A stretch of DNA of 24,000 bases from Nitrososphaerota archaeon. Lineage in GTDB: Archaea; Thermoproteota; Nitrososphaeria; Conexivisphaerales; DTJL01. The notes beneath the pieces are model-generated. The model saw only the letters and a program-made list of their open reading frames with translations. It did no database searches and was not told where the DNA came from. Below, piece after piece: positions 20,261 through 23,671 of this stretch. The translations under genes were made by a program, and so were the position numbers. The stretch is from positions 35,370 through 59,369 of the forward strand of contig JAJPJS010000022.1 of assembly GCA_021324115.1 (NCBI GenBank), read 5' to 3'. The first letter of the stretch is position 1. The number at the start of each line of letters is the position of its first letter.

Positions 20261-20372
20261 CTAGAAGAGGCCGCGGTAATGACTCTAAAGATGTTTTGGG
20301 TTGAAATCGAGTAGCAGGTTTAAAGAAGAAGTGCTGAGGCCTATAACATAATGATATAGAAATAGAAACAAA

Positions 20373-20655
20373 ATGGTAAGCTGGTTGGAAAGCGGTCCCC
20401 CAAATAAGAAACGAGTCCACTCGTGCGTTCGAATATTGAACCCAACTTCGGGTTCTGGATCTCACAGGCTCGTTTTGAAGGACAAAACGGAAGGCCGCGA
20501 CGTTCAATATCCATTCATAAAGCAGGGATGTAATAGACTGCAACATGTCTGGAGGTGGCTGTACGTACTTTGTTACATGCACAACGAGATGAGTGACAGA
20601 ATCGGGTTCAATGGACAACTGAACCTGATGGAGGTTGTCGCATAAGTTAACAACG
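20373..20655 (+). mobile_element. 3'-terminal remnant of an IS6-like insertion sequence (copy 1)
   Basis: 20473-20652 aligns by eye with 22366-22546 of copy 2, including an identical 25-nt run (20543-20567 = 22436-22460). It encodes ...KDKTEGRD..YP...HVWRWLYV.C.M.NEM, which matches the copy 2 transposase C-terminus. Upstream frames show RSNIE, which resembles KSVTE of copy 2. Confidence 0.6.
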
Positions 20656-20675
20656 CCGACCCGCGACAAGACAGG

Positions 20676-20683
20676 TATAAATA
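20676..20683 (+). promoter_or_regulatory. TATA box upstream of ATPase 1
   Basis: TATAAATA lies about 35-40 nt upstream of GTG 20718, immediately 5' of the tandem dyad repeats. Confidence 0.4.
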
Positions 20684-20720
20684 CTTCTGGGGGTAGAAGT
20701 AACTTCGGGGGGTAGAAGTG
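20683..20720 (+). repeat. 2 x 19-bp tandem repeat, each unit an internal dyad, ending in the ATPase 1 start codon
   Basis: The units are acttctgggggtagaagta and acttcggggggtagaagtg (17/19 identical). The arms are ACTTC(T)/(A)GAAGT. GTG 20718-20720 forms the last 3 nt of unit 2. Confidence 0.8.
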
Positions 20721-21803
20721 CTCTTCGATCCGTCACCGAAAGAGTCTAGGAAGGACTTCTTCGACAGGGAAAAGGAGATCGAGCAGCTGGAATCGCTGAA
20801 GTCGAGGGTTGTTCTCATACTGGGTCTAAGGAGGACGGGCAAGTCGTCGTTGGTGAAGATAGTGCTCAACGACCTCAACTTGCCATACGTCTACATCGAC
20901 CTGAGGAGGTTTGAAGAGATGCCCAATATGACTTACCGTGATCTCATCAGGGAGACAGAAAGAGAAGTAAACCGTTTGAAGTATAGGTACCCTGGCATCG
21001 TTAATTTCCTTAGAGGTCTGAAAGGTGTAGGGGTTATGGGAAACGAGGTTAGGTTTTCCTGGGGGAAGGACAGACTATCTTTCTCGGACCTGCTCGTTTC
21101 TTTAAACGACTGGGCCGAGGATAAGGTGCTGGTGGTGATAGATGAGGCTCAAGAGCTCGGGAAACTCAGAGGGGTCGACCTCCTTCCCTCCTTTGCCTAC
21201 TCCTACGACAATCTCAAGAAGGTTAAGATAGTCCTGACGGGGTCTGAAATGGGATTGCTCCATCGCTACCTAAAGACCAAGGACCCAGACAGCCCTCTGT
21301 TTGGGAGGGCAATGTCAGAGGTGCAACTGAAACCTTTTAGGAGGAATGAGGCGATCGATTTTCTAAAAAGGGGCTTCGAGGAGCAGCGGGTACAGTTTAG
21401 GGAATACGAGATGGTTTACGAAGAGATAGGCGGCATACCAGGTTGGCTAACCTACTTCGGCTTCACCTACACCGAGAGCAGAGACCTCGAAAGGTCGTTA
21501 AAGAAGACTCTGGACCATGCTAAGAAGCTGGTGTTGAAAGAGTTTGAGAACTTTCTCGTCGACAAGCAAACTGCGAGTAAGAGGTACTACACAGTGATGA
21601 GAGTCATGGCGGGGTGTGGTACGTGGAGCGAGGTAAAGAGGTCGCTCGAAGCCCAAGAGGGAGTCAGAATATCGGACTCTACATTGTACAATTATTTGAC
21701 TCACTTGGCGGATTCGTCGTGGATAGTTAAGGAAAAGGGTCTCTATTGCCCTACGGACCCTCTGATTAAAATTGCGTTCAAAGAACGGGCTCAGTTAACC
21801 TAA
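20718..21803 (+). CDS. Archaeal AAA ATPase (Arch_ATPase/PF01637-like) with C-terminal DUF234-type wHTH, paralog 1
   Basis: FFDREKEIEQL, Walker A GLRRTGKSSL, Walker B VLVVIDEAQ, then LTGSEMG...SPLFGRA and a C-terminal helical/wHTH region. GTG start. Confidence 0.85.
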   Translation: MLFDPSPKESRKDFFDREKEIEQLESLKSRVVLILGLRRTGKSSLVKIVLNDLNLPYVYIDLRRFEEMPNMTYRDLIRETEREVNRLKYRYPGIVNFLRGLKGVGVMGNEVRFSWGKDRLSFSDLLVSLNDWAEDKVLVVIDEAQELGKLRGVDLLPSFAYSYDNLKKVKIVLTGSEMGLLHRYLKTKDPDSPLFGRAMSEVQLKPFRRNEAIDFLKRGFEEQRVQFREYEMVYEEIGGIPGWLTYFGFTYTESRDLERSLKKTLDHAKKLVLKEFENFLVDKQTASKRYYTVMRVMAGCGTWSEVKRSLEAQEGVRISDSTLYNYLTHLADSSWIVKEKGLYCPTDPLIKIAFKERAQLT

Positions 21804-21808
21804 GCCCC

Positions 21809-21813
21809 TTTTT
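21809..21813 (+). terminator. Oligo-T run after ATPase 1
   Basis: TTTTT begins 6 nt after the stop codon. Confidence 0.3.
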
Positions 21814-21836
21814 GAGTCGGTTGTCTATCTGATTTC

Positions 21837-22550
21837 GCTCAATTACAAACACTGACGGGACGCATCCAATCCCTCATGGTGGTACTCAAAAGAGAAAGGA
21901 TGCGTCCCGAGGACATATTGTACGGTCTGGACCTGTACTGACAGGACCCGAGTTTAAAGCATGTGGCATACGACTTCGATAGACCCGATTGCTAAAAGAA
22001 GTCATGTAACAGTATGGAAGTGGGTACAGATACTTGGTAAGGACGCCGTAATCTGCAGATGCAGGGTAACCGCATTCCTGGTGGATGAGACATATGTTAG
22101 GATGAGTACAAACGAGGCGCGGGTGTGGATTGCCATAGAGCCTATTCACAGGTACATCCTTGGGGTGTACCTGTCAAGGTTTAGGAATATATGGTTGCTG
22201 AATTCTTTCTAAGAACTCTTGTCAGGATGTACGGAAGGCACATAGTGTACACAGATGAAGGTGTAGTATGGTATCCGGACGCATGTAATTTGCTAGGGTT
22301 GGAACACAGGATTCATACCCCATACGAGAAGAGCGTTACAGAAAGCGCGAACCAATCAATCAATCAATTTATGAAGGACAGGACGGAAGGCTTCGACGAT
22401 CATTATCCCTGCAGGAAGCATGGATGTGACCTGTCACATGTCTGGAGGTGGCTGTACGTATTCTGTTTCATGTACAACGAGATGATGAGGAATAGAATCA
22501 GGTTCAATTGACTACTGAACCTGTTGGAGGCGGTCACAAGTTAACAGAGC
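21837..22550 (+). mobile_element. IS6-like insertion sequence (copy 2), about 0.7 kb, with imperfect terminal inverted repeats and a decayed transposase
   Basis: The left end is GCTCAATTACAAACACTGACGGGACGCATCCAA. The reverse complement of the right end is GCTCTGTTAACTTGTGACCGCCTCCAA. The DDE-type transposase fragments lie between them. Confidence 0.55.
21900..22511 (+). pseudogene. IS6-family-like DDE transposase, broken by at least three frame shifts
   Basis: Four pieces are MRPEDILYGLDLY* (frame 0), LTGPEFKACGIRLR* (frame 2), IDPIAKRSHVTVWKWVQ...FLVDETYV...YLSRFRNI (frame 1), and VAEFFLRTL...IVYTDEGVVWYPDACNLLGLEHR...EKSVTES (frame 0). Candidate catalytic residues lie in the DETYV, YTDEG and KSVTE blocks. 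Confidence 0.65.
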
Positions 22551-22572
22551 CGTGCGATAGGAAGTAACGCTT

Positions 22573-22610
22573 AACTACCACGGTGGTAGTGAACTACCAC
22601 GGTGGTAGTA
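22573..22610 (+). repeat. 2 x 19-bp tandem repeat, each unit a 17-bp palindrome, abutting the ATPase 2 start codon
   Basis: The units are aactaccacggtggtagtg and aactaccacggtggtagta (18/19 identical). The arms are ACTACCAC/GTGGTAGT with a 1-nt centre. The last nt of unit 2 is the A of ATG 22610. Confidence 0.85.
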
Positions 22611-23671
22611 TGATCTTCTCACCGGAGCCAAAGAAGAGAATTGAAGACCTCTTTGGTAGAAATGACGAACTAAAAGAACTGGATAAGCTTGTTAGGAAGA
22701 ACAGAATTATTCTCGTAACAGGTATGAGGAGAATCGGAAAAACATCTCTTGTAAATGTGTATCTAAACAAATTCGTAAAGCAACGGTTTGCACTCGTTGA
22801 CGTAAGAACCTCTGGCAAATCATTCAATGGAATATTCCAAGTTTTCGATGATGTGTTACACCAGCTTGATAGTTGGATTAACATCAAGGATATGTTGAAG
22901 GGAGTCACGGGGGTAACTGTCTTTGGTTCTGGAATATCGTTAAGCTGGAAGGAAAATAGTAGGGCTAACTTGGGAGAAATCTTTGATACGATAAACAAGA
23001 CCGGAAAGAAGTTCCTCGTGGTTCTGGACGAGGCGCAGCGGCTCAGAGGAAACCTATCATACGTTATTCTTGACCTGCTTGCTCACTGCTACGACTACTG
23101 TGACAACATCAAGTTCATCATTACAGGCTCTGAAGCGGGAGTACTCCGAGATTTTATCAGAATAGATGATTCGCAATCGTCTCTCTTTGGAAGACATATT
23201 CCAGAGCTAAGGCTTGATGGTTTTAGCAGGGAAAAGTCCAGGGAATTTCTTATCAGGGGCTTTGGGGAGGCAGGGCTAAAATTCAAACAGGATGTTATCG
23301 AAAAATCCTTTGATTATCTTGACGGTGTTGCTGGCTGGCTCAACGAGTTTGGTCTAAGGTGTATCGAAAAGGGCACGGTTACAGAGAGTATTCTTTCAGA
23401 TGTCTTTGAAAATGCAGTAAAACTGGAGATCGAAGAAGTATCCAGGTTCTCAACCAATTATATTCTAGTGCTAGAAGCATTGGGACAGGGAAGAACAAGA
23501 TGGAGCAGAATAAGAAACTACTTGGAAGGTAAACTCCAGAGAACGGTAAACGATTCCGAGGTTCAAAGATATCTCGAGAAGATGATAAAGAGAGGATATG
23601 TAGAAAAGAGAAATGATGAATACCTCATACTAGACCCAGTTCTCATAAGGTATTTCTCAAAGGAAACATGA
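22610..23671 (+). CDS. Archaeal AAA ATPase (Arch_ATPase/PF01637-like) with C-terminal DUF234-type wHTH, paralog 2
   Basis: MIFSPEPKKRIEDLFGRNDELKEL aligns with the paralog 1 N-terminus. Walker A GMRRIGKTSL and Walker B FLVVLDEAQ, then ITGSEAG...SSLFGRH. The ORF-track start GTG 22583 lies inside the repeat, so ATG 22610 is preferred. Confidence 0.85.
   Translation: MIFSPEPKKRIEDLFGRNDELKELDKLVRKNRIILVTGMRRIGKTSLVNVYLNKFVKQRFALVDVRTSGKSFNGIFQVFDDVLHQLDSWINIKDMLKGVTGVTVFGSGISLSWKENSRANLGEIFDTINKTGKKFLVVLDEAQRLRGNLSYVILDLLAHCYDYCDNIKFIITGSEAGVLRDFIRIDDSQSSLFGRHIPELRLDGFSREKSREFLIRGFGEAGLKFKQDVIEKSFDYLDGVAGWLNEFGLRCIEKGTVTESILSDVFENAVKLEIEEVSRFSTNYILVLEALGQGRTRWSRIRNYLEGKLQRTVNDSEVQRYLEKMIKRGYVEKRNDEYLILDPVLIRYFSKET

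What the first reader, a model, noticed from the sequence alone, without database searches (positions are those of the whole stretch)
20676..20720. Iteron-like 2 x 19-bp dyad repeat between the TATA box and the start codon of ATPase 1
Directly after TATAAATA (20676-20683) come two tandem 19-bp units, ACTTCTGGGGGTAGAAGTA and ACTTCGGGGGGTAGAAGTG. Each is a dyad (ACTTCT-N6-AGAAGT in unit 1). The junction forms a third palindrome, GAAGT-A-ACTTC. The GTG start codon is the last 3 nt of unit 2, and the G-run doubles as a Shine-Dalgarno-like element.

This placement, downstream of TATA and covering the TSS and RBS, is typical of an archaeal repressor operator. The encoded protein carries a C-terminal wHTH, so autoregulation is plausible. 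Alternatively the units form two 5'-UTR hairpins that sequester the RBS and start codon. A further possibility is iteron or ORB-like sites for an Orc/Cdc6-like AAA+ protein.
Basis: partly seen in the sequence, partly recalled or inferred. Interest (0 to 1): 0.65.

Follow-up and report, generated by a model that had tools for sequence, protein, structure and literature searches.

The report
Private tandem operator of archaeal ATPases
The two 19-bp dyad repeats in front of this archaeal ATPase gene are real, and nearly every relative of the gene across several archaeal phyla carries its own version, most likely a docking site through which each ATPase controls its own gene.

Summary
TATAAATA lies at 20676-20683, followed by two 19-bp units whose 18-nt cores are dyads (20683-20701, 20702-20720). 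The second ends in the GTG start of a 361-aa ATPase_2 (PF01637) protein with a winged-helix tail, the orthologue of SSO1545 (PDB 2FNA).

This is not a local oddity. The neighbouring paralogue (31% identical) has the same layout with a different sequence, 2 x ACTACCACGGTGGTAGT abutting its ATG. A strict repeat score was passed by 58 of 78 homologue upstreams and by 0 of 125 other ORF starts in the same loci. These homologues come from Thermoproteota, Bathy-, Kor-, Had-, Methanomethylic- and Thermoplasmata-type archaea.

- Arms change by compensatory substitutions.
- Orthologues keep their operator.
- Paralogues sharing a genome never share one.
- The distal unit can be flipped.
- Operator similarity tracks the predicted recognition helix.

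Best reading: a paralogue-specific tandem DNA operator between the TATA box and the start codon, bound by the gene's own product, most likely for autorepression. This is inferred; no binding or TSS data were available. The RNA-hairpin and origin/iteron readings are disfavoured. I found no description of this element in the literature available to me.

The parts
20676..20683 (+). TATA-like box (TATAAATA) of the ATPase 1 promoter. Its last A is also the first base of unit 1.
   Evidence: Read directly. Across 76 homologue loci an AT-rich peak (70-82% A+T) sits 48 to 36 nt upstream of the start codon (-48 to -36), directly 5' of the distal unit. Promoter function is inferred from archaeal promoter geometry.
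20683..20700 (.). Distal operator unit 1, ACTTCT-GGGGGT-AGAAGT (18-nt dyad). A20701 is the 1-nt spacer that completes the 19-bp period. Predicted to span about -24 to -7 relative to the inferred TSS (G20707).
   Evidence: The identical 18-mer stands upstream of SSO1545 in S. solfataricus and of other 56-58%-identical orthologues. In relatives L100 and L199 the same unit is present in reverse orientation.
20702..20719 (+). Proximal operator unit 2, ACTTC-GGGGGGT-AGAAGT. It overlaps the predicted TSS (about 20706-20707). Its G-run is a candidate Shine-Dalgarno element, and its last two bases are the first two of the GTG start codon (20718-20720).
   Evidence: The repeat ends within -6 to +3 nt of the start codon in nearly all loci that carry it. 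The G-run is on the sense strand in 56 of 57 classifiable proximal units. The TSS position is inferred from the TATA centre plus 26-27 nt.
20718..21803 (+). ATPase 1 gene: 361 aa, an ATPase_2 (PF01637) AAA+ domain plus a C-terminal winged helix. Orthologue of SSO1545 (PDB 2FNA). Proposed cognate binder of units 1 and 2.
   Evidence: Walker A (G36..K42 S44) and Walker B (D142 E143) are invariant in the 36-sequence alignment.
21648..21713 (+). Codons for residues 311-332: the H2-H3 turn and the predicted recognition helix (H320-332) of the winged helix. This is one of the two protein segments that co-vary most with the operator sequence.
   Evidence: Secondary structure comes from the AlphaFold model. 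Partial Mantel r = 0.23 (p = 0.0003) for residues 317-327, against r = -0.04 for the rest of the winged helix. It is one of two peaks in an unbiased sliding-window scan.
20856..20927 (+). Codons for residues 47-70 (end of the Walker A helix, strand beta2 and the loop after it). This is the second segment that co-varies with the operator. Its position corresponds roughly to where the initiator-specific motif sits in Orc1/Cdc6.
   Evidence: Sliding-window scan peak r of about 0.27; secondary structure. A DNA contact here is speculation, and the peak could also reflect subfamily signal.
22574..22609 (.). Tandem operator of the paralogue ATPase 2. Two perfect copies of the 17-nt palindrome ACTACCAC-G-GTGGTAGT (22574-22590, 22593-22609) with a 19-bp period, abutting the ATG at 22610.
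   Evidence: 0 chance matches expected. The arms ACTACC/GGTAGT are conserved upstream of 58-60%-identical orthologues L222 and L223.
22610..23671 (+). ATPase 2 gene: 353 aa from the ATG, same family, 31% identical to ATPase 1. The longer GTG-started ORF 22583-23671 is an artefact of ORF listing.
   Evidence: The gene callers on the public contigs start it at this ATG. The N-terminus MIFSPEPKK aligns with M-LFDPSPK of ATPase 1.

Best explanation
The two 19-bp units are a double-stranded DNA operator built into the core promoter of the ATPase gene.

**Layout.** Unit 1 fills the space between the TATA box and the transcription start. Unit 2 covers the start site, the short leader and the start codon.

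**Proposed mechanism.** The gene's own product recognises the units through its winged helix. This product is an ATPase_2-family AAA+ protein with a C-terminal winged helix, from the SSO1545/2FNA family. A second contact from the AAA+ domain may help, as in Orc1/Cdc6. Occupying both units would keep TFB/RNA polymerase off the promoter. The gene would then repress itself and hold its own level steady, and the nucleotide state of the ATPase probably tunes binding.

**Specificity.** Each paralogue has its own private operator sequence, so paralogues in one cell would not cross-regulate. The G-run in the proximal unit probably also serves as the ribosome-binding site of the roughly 11-16-nt leader.

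**Shown versus inferred.**
- Shown: the element, its family-wide conservation, its dyad covariation, its paralogue specificity, its orientation tolerance, and its statistical link to the recognition helix.
- Inferred: binding by the cognate protein, the sign of regulation (repression), the TSS position, and ATP dependence.
For: 1. **The element is real and non-random.**
2. **The paralogue has the same layout with a different sequence.** ATPase 2 carries 2 x ACTACCACGGTGGTAGT with a 19-bp period, abutting its ATG.
3. **The layout is family-wide.** A tandem or inverted two-unit repeat with score >= 7 is found in 58 of 78 homologue upstreams and in 0 of 125 other ORF starts in the same loci (Mann-Whitney p = 1e-28). 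The period is 19 in 38 loci, 17 in 11, 20 in 6, 18 in 2 and 22 in 1. The repeat ends at -6 to +3 nt from the start codon.
4. **The operator is under purifying selection.** Orthologues only 56-58% identical in protein, including SSO1545 and S. acidocaldarius, keep the same 18-mer while the flanking DNA is unalignable. ATPase 2 orthologues likewise keep the ACTACC/GGTAGT arms.
5. **Dyad symmetry is kept by compensatory change.** 91.6% of arm cells are paired, and 10 of 14 pairs show double-sided changes. The covariation score is 0.557 against 0.206 in shuffles (0 of 500 reach it). Slid controls pair at only 25-50%.
6. **The two units of a locus evolve together.** They match at 16.2 of 18 positions within a locus. 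Between loci outside the ACTTC group the figure is 8.4 of 18.
7. **Operators are private.** In 14 genomes, 16 paralogue pairs have background operator similarity of 0.33-0.60. No single common factor could read them all.
8. **The distal unit can be inverted.** This occurs even among close relatives carrying the same 18-mer (L100 and L199 against the window; L224 against L225). The distal core is C-rich in 8 of 57 loci (one of them, L082, probably a misclassification) and the proximal core in 1 of 57. This fits a duplex DNA site.
9. **Operator similarity tracks the recognition helix.** For the 11 residues at the start of the helix, partial Mantel r = 0.23 (p = 0.0003) after controlling for ATPase-domain identity. 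The rest of the winged helix gives r = -0.04. At matched ATPase identity of 0.35-0.45, same-operator pairs share 44% of these residues against 27%, with 37% against 37% elsewhere in the domain. An unbiased window scan puts one of its two peaks there.
10. **The tandem operator occurs nowhere else.** Of 36 public loci with two adjacent units of the ATPase 1 type, at least 34 are followed at once by the ATPase N-terminus (the script flagged 35 and missed L142, whose ATPase start is shown by tblastn; one flagged locus, L120, looks degenerate). None of 92 single hits is.
11. **The gene stands alone.** No conserved downstream partner was found.
12. **Geometry fits repression.** The AT-rich box lies 48 to 36 nt upstream of the start codon (-48 to -36), which puts the inferred TSS inside unit 2. 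From established knowledge, this is the position from which archaeal repressors such as MDR1, LrpA and Phr block polymerase recruitment.
13. **There is a precedent.** Orc1-2 of Saccharolobus islandicus is an AAA+ plus winged-helix protein. It is a transcription regulator that footprints on its own promoter (PMC9738581). The closest folds after 2FNA and 2QEN are Orc1/Cdc6 proteins, including DNA-bound 2QBY.
Against: - There are no binding data for any family member, and I could not reach any TSS map covering an orthologue.
- The covariation test is confounded by shared ancestry. The same-operator pairs at low identity come from a few lineages.
- The whole winged-helix domain gave only r = 0.066 (p = 0.066).
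- An equally strong peak lies in the ATPase domain at residues 47-70. That may simply mark subfamily-diagnostic positions.
- Pfam classes the winged helix with the MCM C-terminal type, which is not known for sequence-specific binding.
- A protein that regulates only itself has no evident purpose, so the real function of the ATPase is still missing.
- The conserved GGGG(G)T core could owe part of its conservation to translation rather than protein binding.
- Tolerance of both direct and inverted arrangements is unusual for a cooperative homodimer pair.
Confidence: 0.6

Rival explanations
1. The element is a conserved operator, but it is read by another trans-acting factor rather than by the ATPase itself. 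One option is a separately encoded small DNA-binding protein that has co-diversified with each paralogue.
For: No binding data exist. The recognition-helix covariation is only suggestive and is confounded by phylogeny. The winged helix is of the MCM_C type in Pfam.
Against: Operators differ between paralogues in the same genome. A common factor is therefore excluded, and a matching set of unlinked partner genes would be needed. No conserved neighbouring gene accompanies the ATPase. The only DNA-binding domain that always travels with the operator is the ATPase's own winged helix. Its recognition-helix region is one of the two protein segments that best track the operator.
Confidence: 0.13
2. 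The cognate ATPase binds the units, but the outcome is activation or an ATP-dependent on/off switch (positive autoregulation, as with STAND regulators such as MalT) rather than simple repression.
For: The fold is related to STAND/NLR and MalT-type ATP-driven oligomerising regulators (IniR comparison with SSO1545 in PMC5760070). Distant haloarchaeal homologues carry their repeats upstream of the TATA-like box, a position more typical of activators.
Against: In this subfamily the units lie between TATA and the start codon and cover the inferred TSS. In archaea this is a repressing position (established knowledge on MDR1, LrpA, Phr). In Thermoproteus and Pyrobaculum loci the TATA box lies inside unit 1 (L046, L082).
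Confidence: 0.12
3. The units act as RNA. They form two hairpins in the 5' UTR that sequester the Shine-Dalgarno-like G-run and the start codon, giving translational control or a thermosensor.
For: Each unit can fold, as two 7-pair hairpins with GGGG loops in ATPase 1. The arms show compensatory changes. Mismatches in the arms are more often G:T (32) than A:C (16). The proximal G-run is always on the sense strand.
Against: - The TATA-like box directly abuts unit 1. Unit 1 and the 5' arm of unit 2 should therefore lie upstream of the TSS and not be transcribed (inferred).
- Unit 1 occurs in either orientation.
- Within each locus the two units have the same sequence. A hairpin does not require this, but a shared sequence-specific reader does.
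- The fold energy of the ATPase 1 repeats is no better than shuffles (z = -1.0).
- No Rfam family matches.
- The G:T excess is largely the conserved G...T at the edge of the core.
Confidence: 0.08
4. The units are iterons or ORB-like origin elements for an Orc1/Cdc6-like initiator. They would mark a replication origin or a selfish replicon.
For: The period is 19 bp. Each unit is a dyad with a G-tract, and ORBs are a dyad plus a G-track (PMC9738581). The fold is AAA+ plus winged helix, with Orc/Cdc6 as the nearest neighbours after 2FNA and 2QEN.
Against: - There are only two units, wedged between TATA and a start codon, with no AT-rich unwinding region.
- Several paralogues with different units occur per genome.
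- The protein is ATPase_2, not Orc1/Cdc6. Foldseek TM-scores to Orc proteins are only 0.34-0.48.
- No plasmid relative above about 25% identity was found, and no viral relative at all.
Confidence: 0.03

Closest known systems
Orc1-2 of Saccharolobus islandicus (a non-initiator Orc1 paralogue, the DNA-damage response regulator)
   Same: An AAA+ ATPase with a C-terminal winged helix acts as a transcription regulator in Sulfolobales and binds a motif in its own promoter (PMC9738581).
   Different: Orc1-2 is a true Orc1/Cdc6 family member with an ISM. It reads a 6-nt DDRE (ANTTTC) and controls a global regulon. Here the protein is ATPase_2 (PF01637). The site is a pair of 17-20-bp dyads private to each paralogue, and no other targets were found.
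Orc1/Cdc6 bound to origin recognition boxes (ORB), e.g. PDB 2QBY and 2V1U
   Same: The domain order is AAA+, lid, winged helix, and these are the nearest folds after 2FNA and 2QEN. Per PMC9738581, ORBs combine a dyad read by the winged helix with a G-track touched by the ISM. The units here combine dyad arms with a G-run.
   Different: The loci are not origins. There is no unwinding element, the G-run sits inside the dyad rather than beside it, the sites lie in a promoter, and each genome has many paralogue-specific versions.
Archaeal repressors that bind between TATA and the TSS (MDR1 of Archaeoglobus; LrpA and Phr of Pyrococcus) and the self-regulating Ss-LrpB of S. solfataricus with its regularly spaced palindromic boxes (from my own knowledge)
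   Same: Palindromic sites overlapping the TSS or the core promoter of the regulator's own gene. Repression works by blocking polymerase recruitment.
   Different: Those regulators are small ArsR/Lrp/DtxR-type proteins without an ATPase. Ss-LrpB has three boxes upstream of the promoter. None shows a family-wide set of private operators.
Plasmid iterons and Rep autorepression (e.g. RepA of pPS10, RepE of F; from my own knowledge)
   Same: Direct repeats of about 19-22 bp bound by winged-helix domains, with inverted versions at the rep promoter used for autorepression.
   Different: Only two units are present. The loci are chromosomal, there is no Rep protein, no origin and no DnaA boxes. Orientation varies only for the distal unit.
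SSO1545 (PDB 2FNA) and PABY2304 (PDB 2QEN), structural-genomics AAA+ ATPases of unknown function
   Same: ATPase 1 is the orthologue of SSO1545 (57-58% identity, TM-score 0.96). SSO1545 carries the identical tandem operator.
   Different: Nothing differs in kind. What this work adds is the cis-element and a functional hypothesis for the family. I could not read the structure paper.

Membership tests
Pfam ATPase_2 (PF01637) / SSO1545-type AAA+ with C-terminal winged helix (the protein) | Significant match to PF01637 above its gathering score, plus a C-terminal winged helix | tested here: met
   PF01637 scores 76 bits against a cutoff of 33.2, and PF21100 scores 72 bits against 27. 2FNA matches at E 3e-147. 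The AlphaFold model matches 2FNA with TM-score 0.96.
Pfam ATPase_2 (PF01637) / SSO1545-type AAA+ with C-terminal winged helix (the protein) | Intact Walker A and Walker B motifs | tested here: met
   G36, G41, K42, S44 and D142, E143 are invariant in the 36-sequence alignment, which includes both window proteins.
Autoregulated repressor-operator pair in an archaeal core promoter | Dyad-symmetric site located downstream of the TATA box and reaching the start of the gene | tested here: met
   for the window. for 78 homologue loci. Dyad covariation.
Autoregulated repressor-operator pair in an archaeal core promoter | The site overlaps the experimentally mapped TSS | tested here: inconclusive
   Only predicted, from the TATA centre plus 26-27 nt: about 20706-20707, inside unit 2. 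No accessible TSS data set covered an orthologue.
Autoregulated repressor-operator pair in an archaeal core promoter | Operator sequence co-varies with the DNA-reading residues of the adjacent regulator | tested here: met
   Partial Mantel r = 0.23 (p = 0.0003) for the recognition-helix segment, against -0.04 for the rest of the domain. It is one of two peaks in the window scan. Operators are private within genomes. This is suggestive, because phylogenetic confounding is not fully removed.
Autoregulated repressor-operator pair in an archaeal core promoter | Direct binding of the gene product to the site, and reduced transcription on binding | not testable with these tools
   Needs EMSA, footprinting and in vitro transcription.
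Orc1/Cdc6 initiator with ORB elements | The protein belongs to the Orc1/Cdc6 family | tested here: not met
   The best Pfam families are ATPase_2 and generic AAA families, with no Cdc6 family hit. Foldseek TM-scores to Orc/Cdc6 chains are 0.34-0.48, against 0.96 to 2FNA.
Orc1/Cdc6 initiator with ORB elements | The sites flank an AT-rich unwinding element at one or a few origins per chromosome | tested here: not met
   The units are contiguous and run straight into the coding sequence. The only AT-rich stretch is the 8-13-nt TATA region. Two or three paralogues with different units were sampled in each of 14 genomes.
Plasmid iterons | Three or more tandem direct repeats next to a Rep initiator gene on a plasmid | tested here: not met
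   There are two units only. The distal unit is inverted in some loci. The gene is not a Rep. The plasmid search found only about 25%-identical haloarchaeal homologues.
cis-regulatory RNA structure in a 5' UTR | Match to a described RNA family | tested here: not met
   No relevant Rfam hit in 20300-22800 even at E <= 5.
cis-regulatory RNA structure in a 5' UTR | Fixed strand orientation and a fold more stable than chance | tested here: not met
   Unit 1 occurs in both orientations. The ATPase 1 repeat folds with z = -1.0. ATPase 2 gives z = -6.3, but that follows trivially from a perfect palindrome.
cis-regulatory RNA structure in a 5' UTR | Both hairpins are transcribed | tested here: inconclusive
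   The TATA-like box abuts unit 1, so transcription of unit 1 is not expected. No TSS data were available.

The most novel reading that the evidence does not exclude
The SSO1545-type ATPase_2/winged-helix proteins would be a large, unrecognised class of ATP-switchable, sequence-specific DNA-binding proteins in archaea. The class comprises about 400 clusters at 50% identity with E <= 1e-30.

Each would carry a private, co-evolving operator 'barcode' in its own promoter. Each would read DNA in two places, Orc1/Cdc6-style: the winged helix on the dyad arms and an ISM-like AAA+ segment (residues 47-70) on the G-run.

Several features would point to a STAND-like sensor or defence/conflict role:
- the multiplication into orthogonal paralogues;
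- frequent decay of gene and operator together;
- IS elements nearby;
- weak similarity to candidate defence ATPases (PADLOC PDC-S01 and PDC-S27).

In that role, autorepression would merely hold a dangerous protein at a low level.
Probability: 0.25. Interest if true: 0.8.

Novelty: new variant of a known kind. Interest (0 to 1): 0.68.

Why it matters
The SSO1545/PABY2304 family has had crystal structures since 2006-2008. It still has no function, and in many archaeal genomes it is expanded into several paralogues.

A deeply conserved, paralogue-specific tandem operator in each gene's own promoter gives the family its first concrete and directly testable functional handle. It predicts sequence-specific DNA binding and self-regulation by an AAA+ protein outside the Orc1/Cdc6 family. 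The protein and the 40-bp DNA needed for the test already exist for S. solfataricus.

The family also offers a natural set of dozens of orthogonal regulator-operator pairs from hyperthermophiles. That set is useful for studying how DNA-recognition specificity evolves, and as parts for genetic circuits in archaea.

If the element were only local, it would be a curiosity. Its spread over at least six archaeal lineages makes it a family trait.

Tried and rejected
- **RNA reading.** The Rfam scan was empty. The fold of the ATPase 1 repeats is not better than shuffles. The G:T against A:C count (32 against 16) is dominated by the conserved edge of the core, so I do not use it as evidence.
- **Regulon search.** The unit pattern ACTTCNNGGGGTAGAAGT gave 8 viral and 120 metagenome loci. 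All 92 single hits lie in unrelated, mostly bacterial coding contexts and look like chance. Only tandem hits precede ATPases.
- **Whole-domain covariation.** Partial Mantel for the entire winged helix was weak (r = 0.066, p = 0.066). Only the recognition-helix segment carries signal.
- **Mobile-element origin.** There are no relatives in viral contigs or phage records. Plasmids hold only distant haloarchaeal homologues. All public contigs carrying ATPase 1 share the window's context.
- **Operon partner.** None is conserved.
- **Experimental TSS.** Wurtzel 2010 and the SSO1545 structure paper are not held. Supplements of three Sulfolobales transcriptome papers contain neither SSO1545 nor the operator sequence.
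- **Literature.** Searches on PF01637, DUF234, COG1672, SSO1545, PABY2304 and related terms found no description of the element or of a function. One search was swamped by unrelated 'ATPase2' hits.
- **IS6 terminal inverted repeats.** A guessed pair of repeats around 21787 and 22556 was not confirmed.
Full report
**1. The observation**

The sequence reads as described.

- TATAAATA lies at 20676-20683.
- Unit 1, ACTTCTGGGGGTAGAAGTA, spans 20683-20701.
- Unit 2, ACTTCGGGGGGTAGAAGTG, spans 20702-20720.
- The last three bases, GTG, open the ORF 20718-21803.
- Each unit has 5-6-bp inverted arms around a G-run, and the junction forms GAAGT-A-ACTTC.

The pair is the top direct repeat of the region: 18 nt, 19-nt spacing, 94% identity. 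Allowing three mismatches, the pattern occurs nowhere else in the 24 kb. The chance expectation is 0.06, and 0 of 100 shuffles gave two matches.

[quoted passage not shown] The window comes from a metagenome-assembled archaeal genome, GCA_037025425.1.

**2. The neighbouring paralogue shows the same design**

ATPase 2 starts at the ATG at 22610 and is 31% identical to ATPase 1. It is preceded by two perfect copies of the palindrome ACTACCACGGTGGTAGT at 22574-22590 and 22593-22609. The period is again 19 bp, and the second copy ends exactly at the ATG. The architecture is the same and the sequence is unrelated. This was the first sign that the layout, rather than the sequence, is the conserved object.

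**3. The design is a family trait**

A profile of 36 homologues retrieved 80 loci from a collection of species-representative genomes. The 80 nt upstream of each start codon were printed. Nearly every locus has two adjacent dyad units between an AT-rich box and the start codon.

*Quantified against controls.* I scored the best two-unit direct or inverted repeat with period 16-23 (match +1, mismatch -2). A score of 7 or more occurs in 58 of 78 ATPase upstreams and in 0 of 125 other ORF starts in the same loci (Mann-Whitney p = 1e-28).

| Period (bp) | Loci |
|---|---|
| 19 | 38 |
| 17 | 11 |
| 20 | 6 |
| 18 | 2 |
| 22 | 1 |

The repeat ends between -6 and +3 nt of the start codon in nearly all loci that carry it.

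*Loci that fail the score.* By eye, most still show two units that are more diverged, have an indel, or have an inverted distal unit. Three loci have only one unit left (L021, L056, L074), and all three have truncated ORFs.

*Taxonomic spread.* By record title, the loci span Sulfolobales, Desulfurococcales, Thermoproteales, Nitrososphaeria, Bathyarchaeota, Korarchaeum, Methanomethylicota, Hadarchaeota, Nezhaarchaeales and a Thermoplasmata MAG.

*Family size.* The library of representatives clustered at 50% identity holds 404 clusters with E <= 1e-30 and 1394 with E <= 1e-10.

**4. How the sequences behave**

- **Orthologues keep their operator.** S. solfataricus SSO1545 is 58% identical to ATPase 1 and is the protein of PDB 2FNA. 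It has AACTTCTGGGGGTAGAAGT-T-ACTTCTGGGGGTAGAAGTG. S. acidocaldarius SUSAZ has the same with A in place of G at one position. Flanking DNA is unalignable. Orthologues of ATPase 2 at 58-60% identity keep ACTACC-NGGGT-GGTAGT.
- **The arms change by compensatory substitution.** On 17 gaplessly aligned loci, 91.6% of arm cells pair and 10 of 14 pairs show changes on both sides. The covariation score is 0.557 against 0.206 in shuffles (0 of 500 reach it). Slid controls pair at only 25-50%. The loci were chosen for having dyads, so the pairing percentage is inflated. The two-sided changes are not.
- **The two units of a locus evolve together.** They match at 16.2 of 18 positions within a locus. Between loci outside the ACTTC group they match at 8.4 of 18.
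- **Paralogues in one genome never share an operator.** Sixteen pairs in 14 genomes have similarity of 0.33-0.60, which is the background level.
- **The centre is usually GGGG(G)T** in nearly all subfamilies.
- **The distal unit can be flipped.** In L100 and L199, unit 2 is identical or nearly identical to that of the window, and unit 1 is the reverse complement of the same 18-mer. L224 and L225 are close relatives with the same unit, inverted in one and direct in the other. The distal core is C-rich in 8 of 57 classifiable loci (one of them, L082, probably a misclassification) and the proximal core in 1 of 57 (Fisher p = 0.03; the loci are not independent).
- **The tandem operator is found only in front of these genes.** Among 128 public loci with an exact match to ACTTCNNGGGGTAGAAGT, 36 have a second adjacent unit. 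The script flagged 35 of these as followed at once by the N-terminus LFDPxPK..FFDRE; one flagged locus (L120) looks degenerate, and the unflagged one (L142) has a tblastn ATPase hit. None of the 92 single hits is; they lie in unrelated contexts and look like chance.
- **No downstream partner gene is conserved**.

**5. DNA or RNA**

Dyad covariation alone cannot separate a palindromic protein site from an RNA hairpin. Four observations favour DNA.

- The AT-rich TATA-like box sits 48 to 36 nt upstream of the start codon and directly abuts unit 1; in the window TATAAATA even shares a base with unit 1. With the usual archaeal spacing, in which the TATA centre lies about 26-27 nt upstream of the TSS (established knowledge), transcription should start near 20706-20707, at the arm/G-run boundary of unit 2. 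Unit 1 and the 5' arm of unit 2 would then not be in the mRNA. In Thermoproteus and Pyrobaculum loci the TATA box lies inside unit 1 and the ATG inside unit 2 (L046, L082). That fits leaderless mRNAs and again a promoter-level site.
- Unit 1 works in either orientation.
- The two units share a sequence, which a common sequence-specific reader requires and a pair of hairpins does not.
- The RNA fold of the ATPase 1 repeats is no better than shuffles (z = -1.0), and Rfam has nothing.

The one orientation-fixed feature is the sense-strand G-run of the proximal unit. It fits a second job as a Shine-Dalgarno element of a short leader: GGGGGU could pair with the ACCUCC of the 16S 3' end. This is inference, since no rRNA gene was available to check.

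**6. Who reads it**

Operators differ between paralogues in a single cell, so a general factor is excluded. The only DNA-binding domain that always accompanies the operator is the ATPase's own winged helix.

The AlphaFold model has pLDDT 93 and TM-score 0.96 to 2FNA. It places the three helices at 284-297, 303-314 and 320-332, followed by a beta hairpin.

- **Covariation with the recognition helix.** Operator similarity between loci correlates with identity in the 11 residues at the start of the recognition helix (317-327, RISDSTLYNYL), after controlling for ATPase-domain identity. Partial Mantel r = 0.23, p = 0.0003. The rest of the winged helix shows none (r = -0.04, p = 0.81).
- **Matched comparison.** Among pairs with 35-45% ATPase identity, same-operator pairs share 44% of these residues against 27% for different-operator pairs. 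Identity elsewhere in the domain is equal, at 37% against 37%.
- **Motif pairings seen by eye.**

| Recognition-helix motif | Operator arms |
|---|---|
| SDS | CTTCT/AGAAG |
| NDSE | ACTACC/GGTAGT |
| YDAE | ACTAAC/GTTAGT |
| PNNT | GTTA/TAAC |
| HNET/YNKT | GTTACA/TGTAAC |

- **Unbiased scan.** A scan with 11-residue windows gives two peaks of r about 0.27, against a mean of 0.04 and sd of 0.09. One covers residues 311-328. The other covers residues 47-70, just after the Walker A helix and strand beta2. The second peak lies roughly where Orc1/Cdc6 proteins carry their initiator-specific motif. It may mark a second DNA contact or only subfamily-specific positions.

These tests are suggestive, not conclusive. 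Shared ancestry is only partly controlled. The low-identity same-operator pairs come from few lineages. The whole domain gave only r = 0.066.

**7. Mechanism proposed**

Two protomers, or two dimers, of the ATPase would occupy units 1 and 2. They would cover the DNA from the 3' edge of the TATA box to the start codon and so prevent TFB/RNA polymerase from engaging. This is negative autoregulation of a stand-alone gene.

Walker A and B motifs are invariant, so the nucleotide state probably modulates binding or oligomerisation, as in Orc1, DnaA and STAND regulators. Binding, the sign of regulation, the TSS and ATP dependence are all inferred.

**8. Comparison with known systems**

After 2FNA and 2QEN, the nearest folds are Orc/Cdc6 chains (including S. 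solfataricus Orc1-1/Orc1-3 on origin DNA, 2QBY), RuvB, NLR resistosomes and MalT.

- **Closest functional precedent.** Orc1-2 of S. islandicus is an AAA+/ISM/winged-helix protein that regulates the DNA-damage response and footprints on a hexanucleotide in its own promoter (PMC9738581). The same paper summarises that ORBs are a dyad bound by the winged helix plus a G-track touched by the ISM. That composition is echoed here.
- **Membership in the Orc1/Cdc6-ORB family fails.** The protein family is wrong, there is no unwinding element, and there are many versions per genome.
- **Membership among plasmid iterons fails.** There are two units, no Rep protein and no plasmid.
- **The promoter position matches** archaeal repressors that act between TATA and the TSS.
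- **Defence similarity is weak.** PADLOC gives weak hits to candidate single-gene defence ATPases PDC-S01 and PDC-S27 (E 1e-12 to 1e-13).

**9. Novelty**

Searches of the available literature found the family mentioned only as a structural neighbour. The terms were PF01637, DUF234, COG1672, SSO1545, PABY2304 and AAA+/own promoter/Sulfolobus. No function was given and the repeats were not mentioned. The 2009 structure paper could not be read, so prior notice there cannot be excluded.

I rate this a new variant of a known kind. Autoregulatory operators are ordinary. A family-wide system of private tandem operators for a non-Orc AAA+/winged-helix ATPase appears undescribed.

**10. Verdict**

| Claim | Confidence |
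|---|---|
| The element is a selected, functional cis-element | about 0.9 |
| It is a DNA operator read by its own gene product, most likely for repression | 0.6 |

Interest is 0.68.

Noticed in passing
window about 20473-20661 and about 21886-22556: IS6-family transposase remnants lie directly upstream of both ATPase promoters, in the same orientation. They end 10-15 nt before each TATA-like box. They are about 85% identical to each other, although the two ATPases are only 31% identical, so they look like independent insertions at equivalent spots. The upstream copy is only a 3' fragment. The second has a frameshifted transposase (ORFs 21961-22212 and 22191-22511). Several metagenome contigs break inside it. 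SSO1545 and a Haloterrigena homologue also have a transposase gene just upstream.
   Followed up: partly
window 21856-21874 / 21891-21909: A 19-nt imperfect inverted repeat (84% complementary, 16-nt loop) lies downstream of ATPase 1 near the left edge of the IS6 copy. Its role is unknown.
   Followed up: no
L218-L221 (haloarchaeal megaplasmids), 60-95 nt upstream of the ATG: Distant (about 25% identical), longer (470-aa) homologues carry a different conserved direct repeat: ACGTTAGT, 2-3 copies, period 15. It lies upstream of a TATA-like box rather than downstream. Repeats near the gene's own promoter may therefore be a wider family habit with a different geometry.
   Followed up: partly
L021, L056, L074; metagenome loci L106, L180, L191, L194, L202: Loci that retain only one operator unit all have truncated ATPase ORFs. 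Several metagenome copies have frameshifts right after the LFDPxPKSS N-terminus. This suggests frequent decay of gene and operator together, unless these are sequencing errors.
   Followed up: no
window 20856-20927 (residues 47-70 of ATPase 1): In the sliding-window scan, a segment of the AAA+ domain after strand beta2 co-varies with operator sequence as strongly as the recognition helix does. It lies roughly where Orc1/Cdc6 has its initiator-specific motif.
   Followed up: partly
L222, L223, L224, L225 gene starts: Public gene calls for ATPase 2 relatives start at a GTG inside operator unit 2. In L222 the conserved N-terminus (MLFSPEP) starts at an ATG 9 nt downstream, and the homologous N-terminus likewise begins about 9 nt downstream in L223-L225. 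The window's own 362-aa ORF (22583) is the same kind of over-extension.
   Followed up: yes
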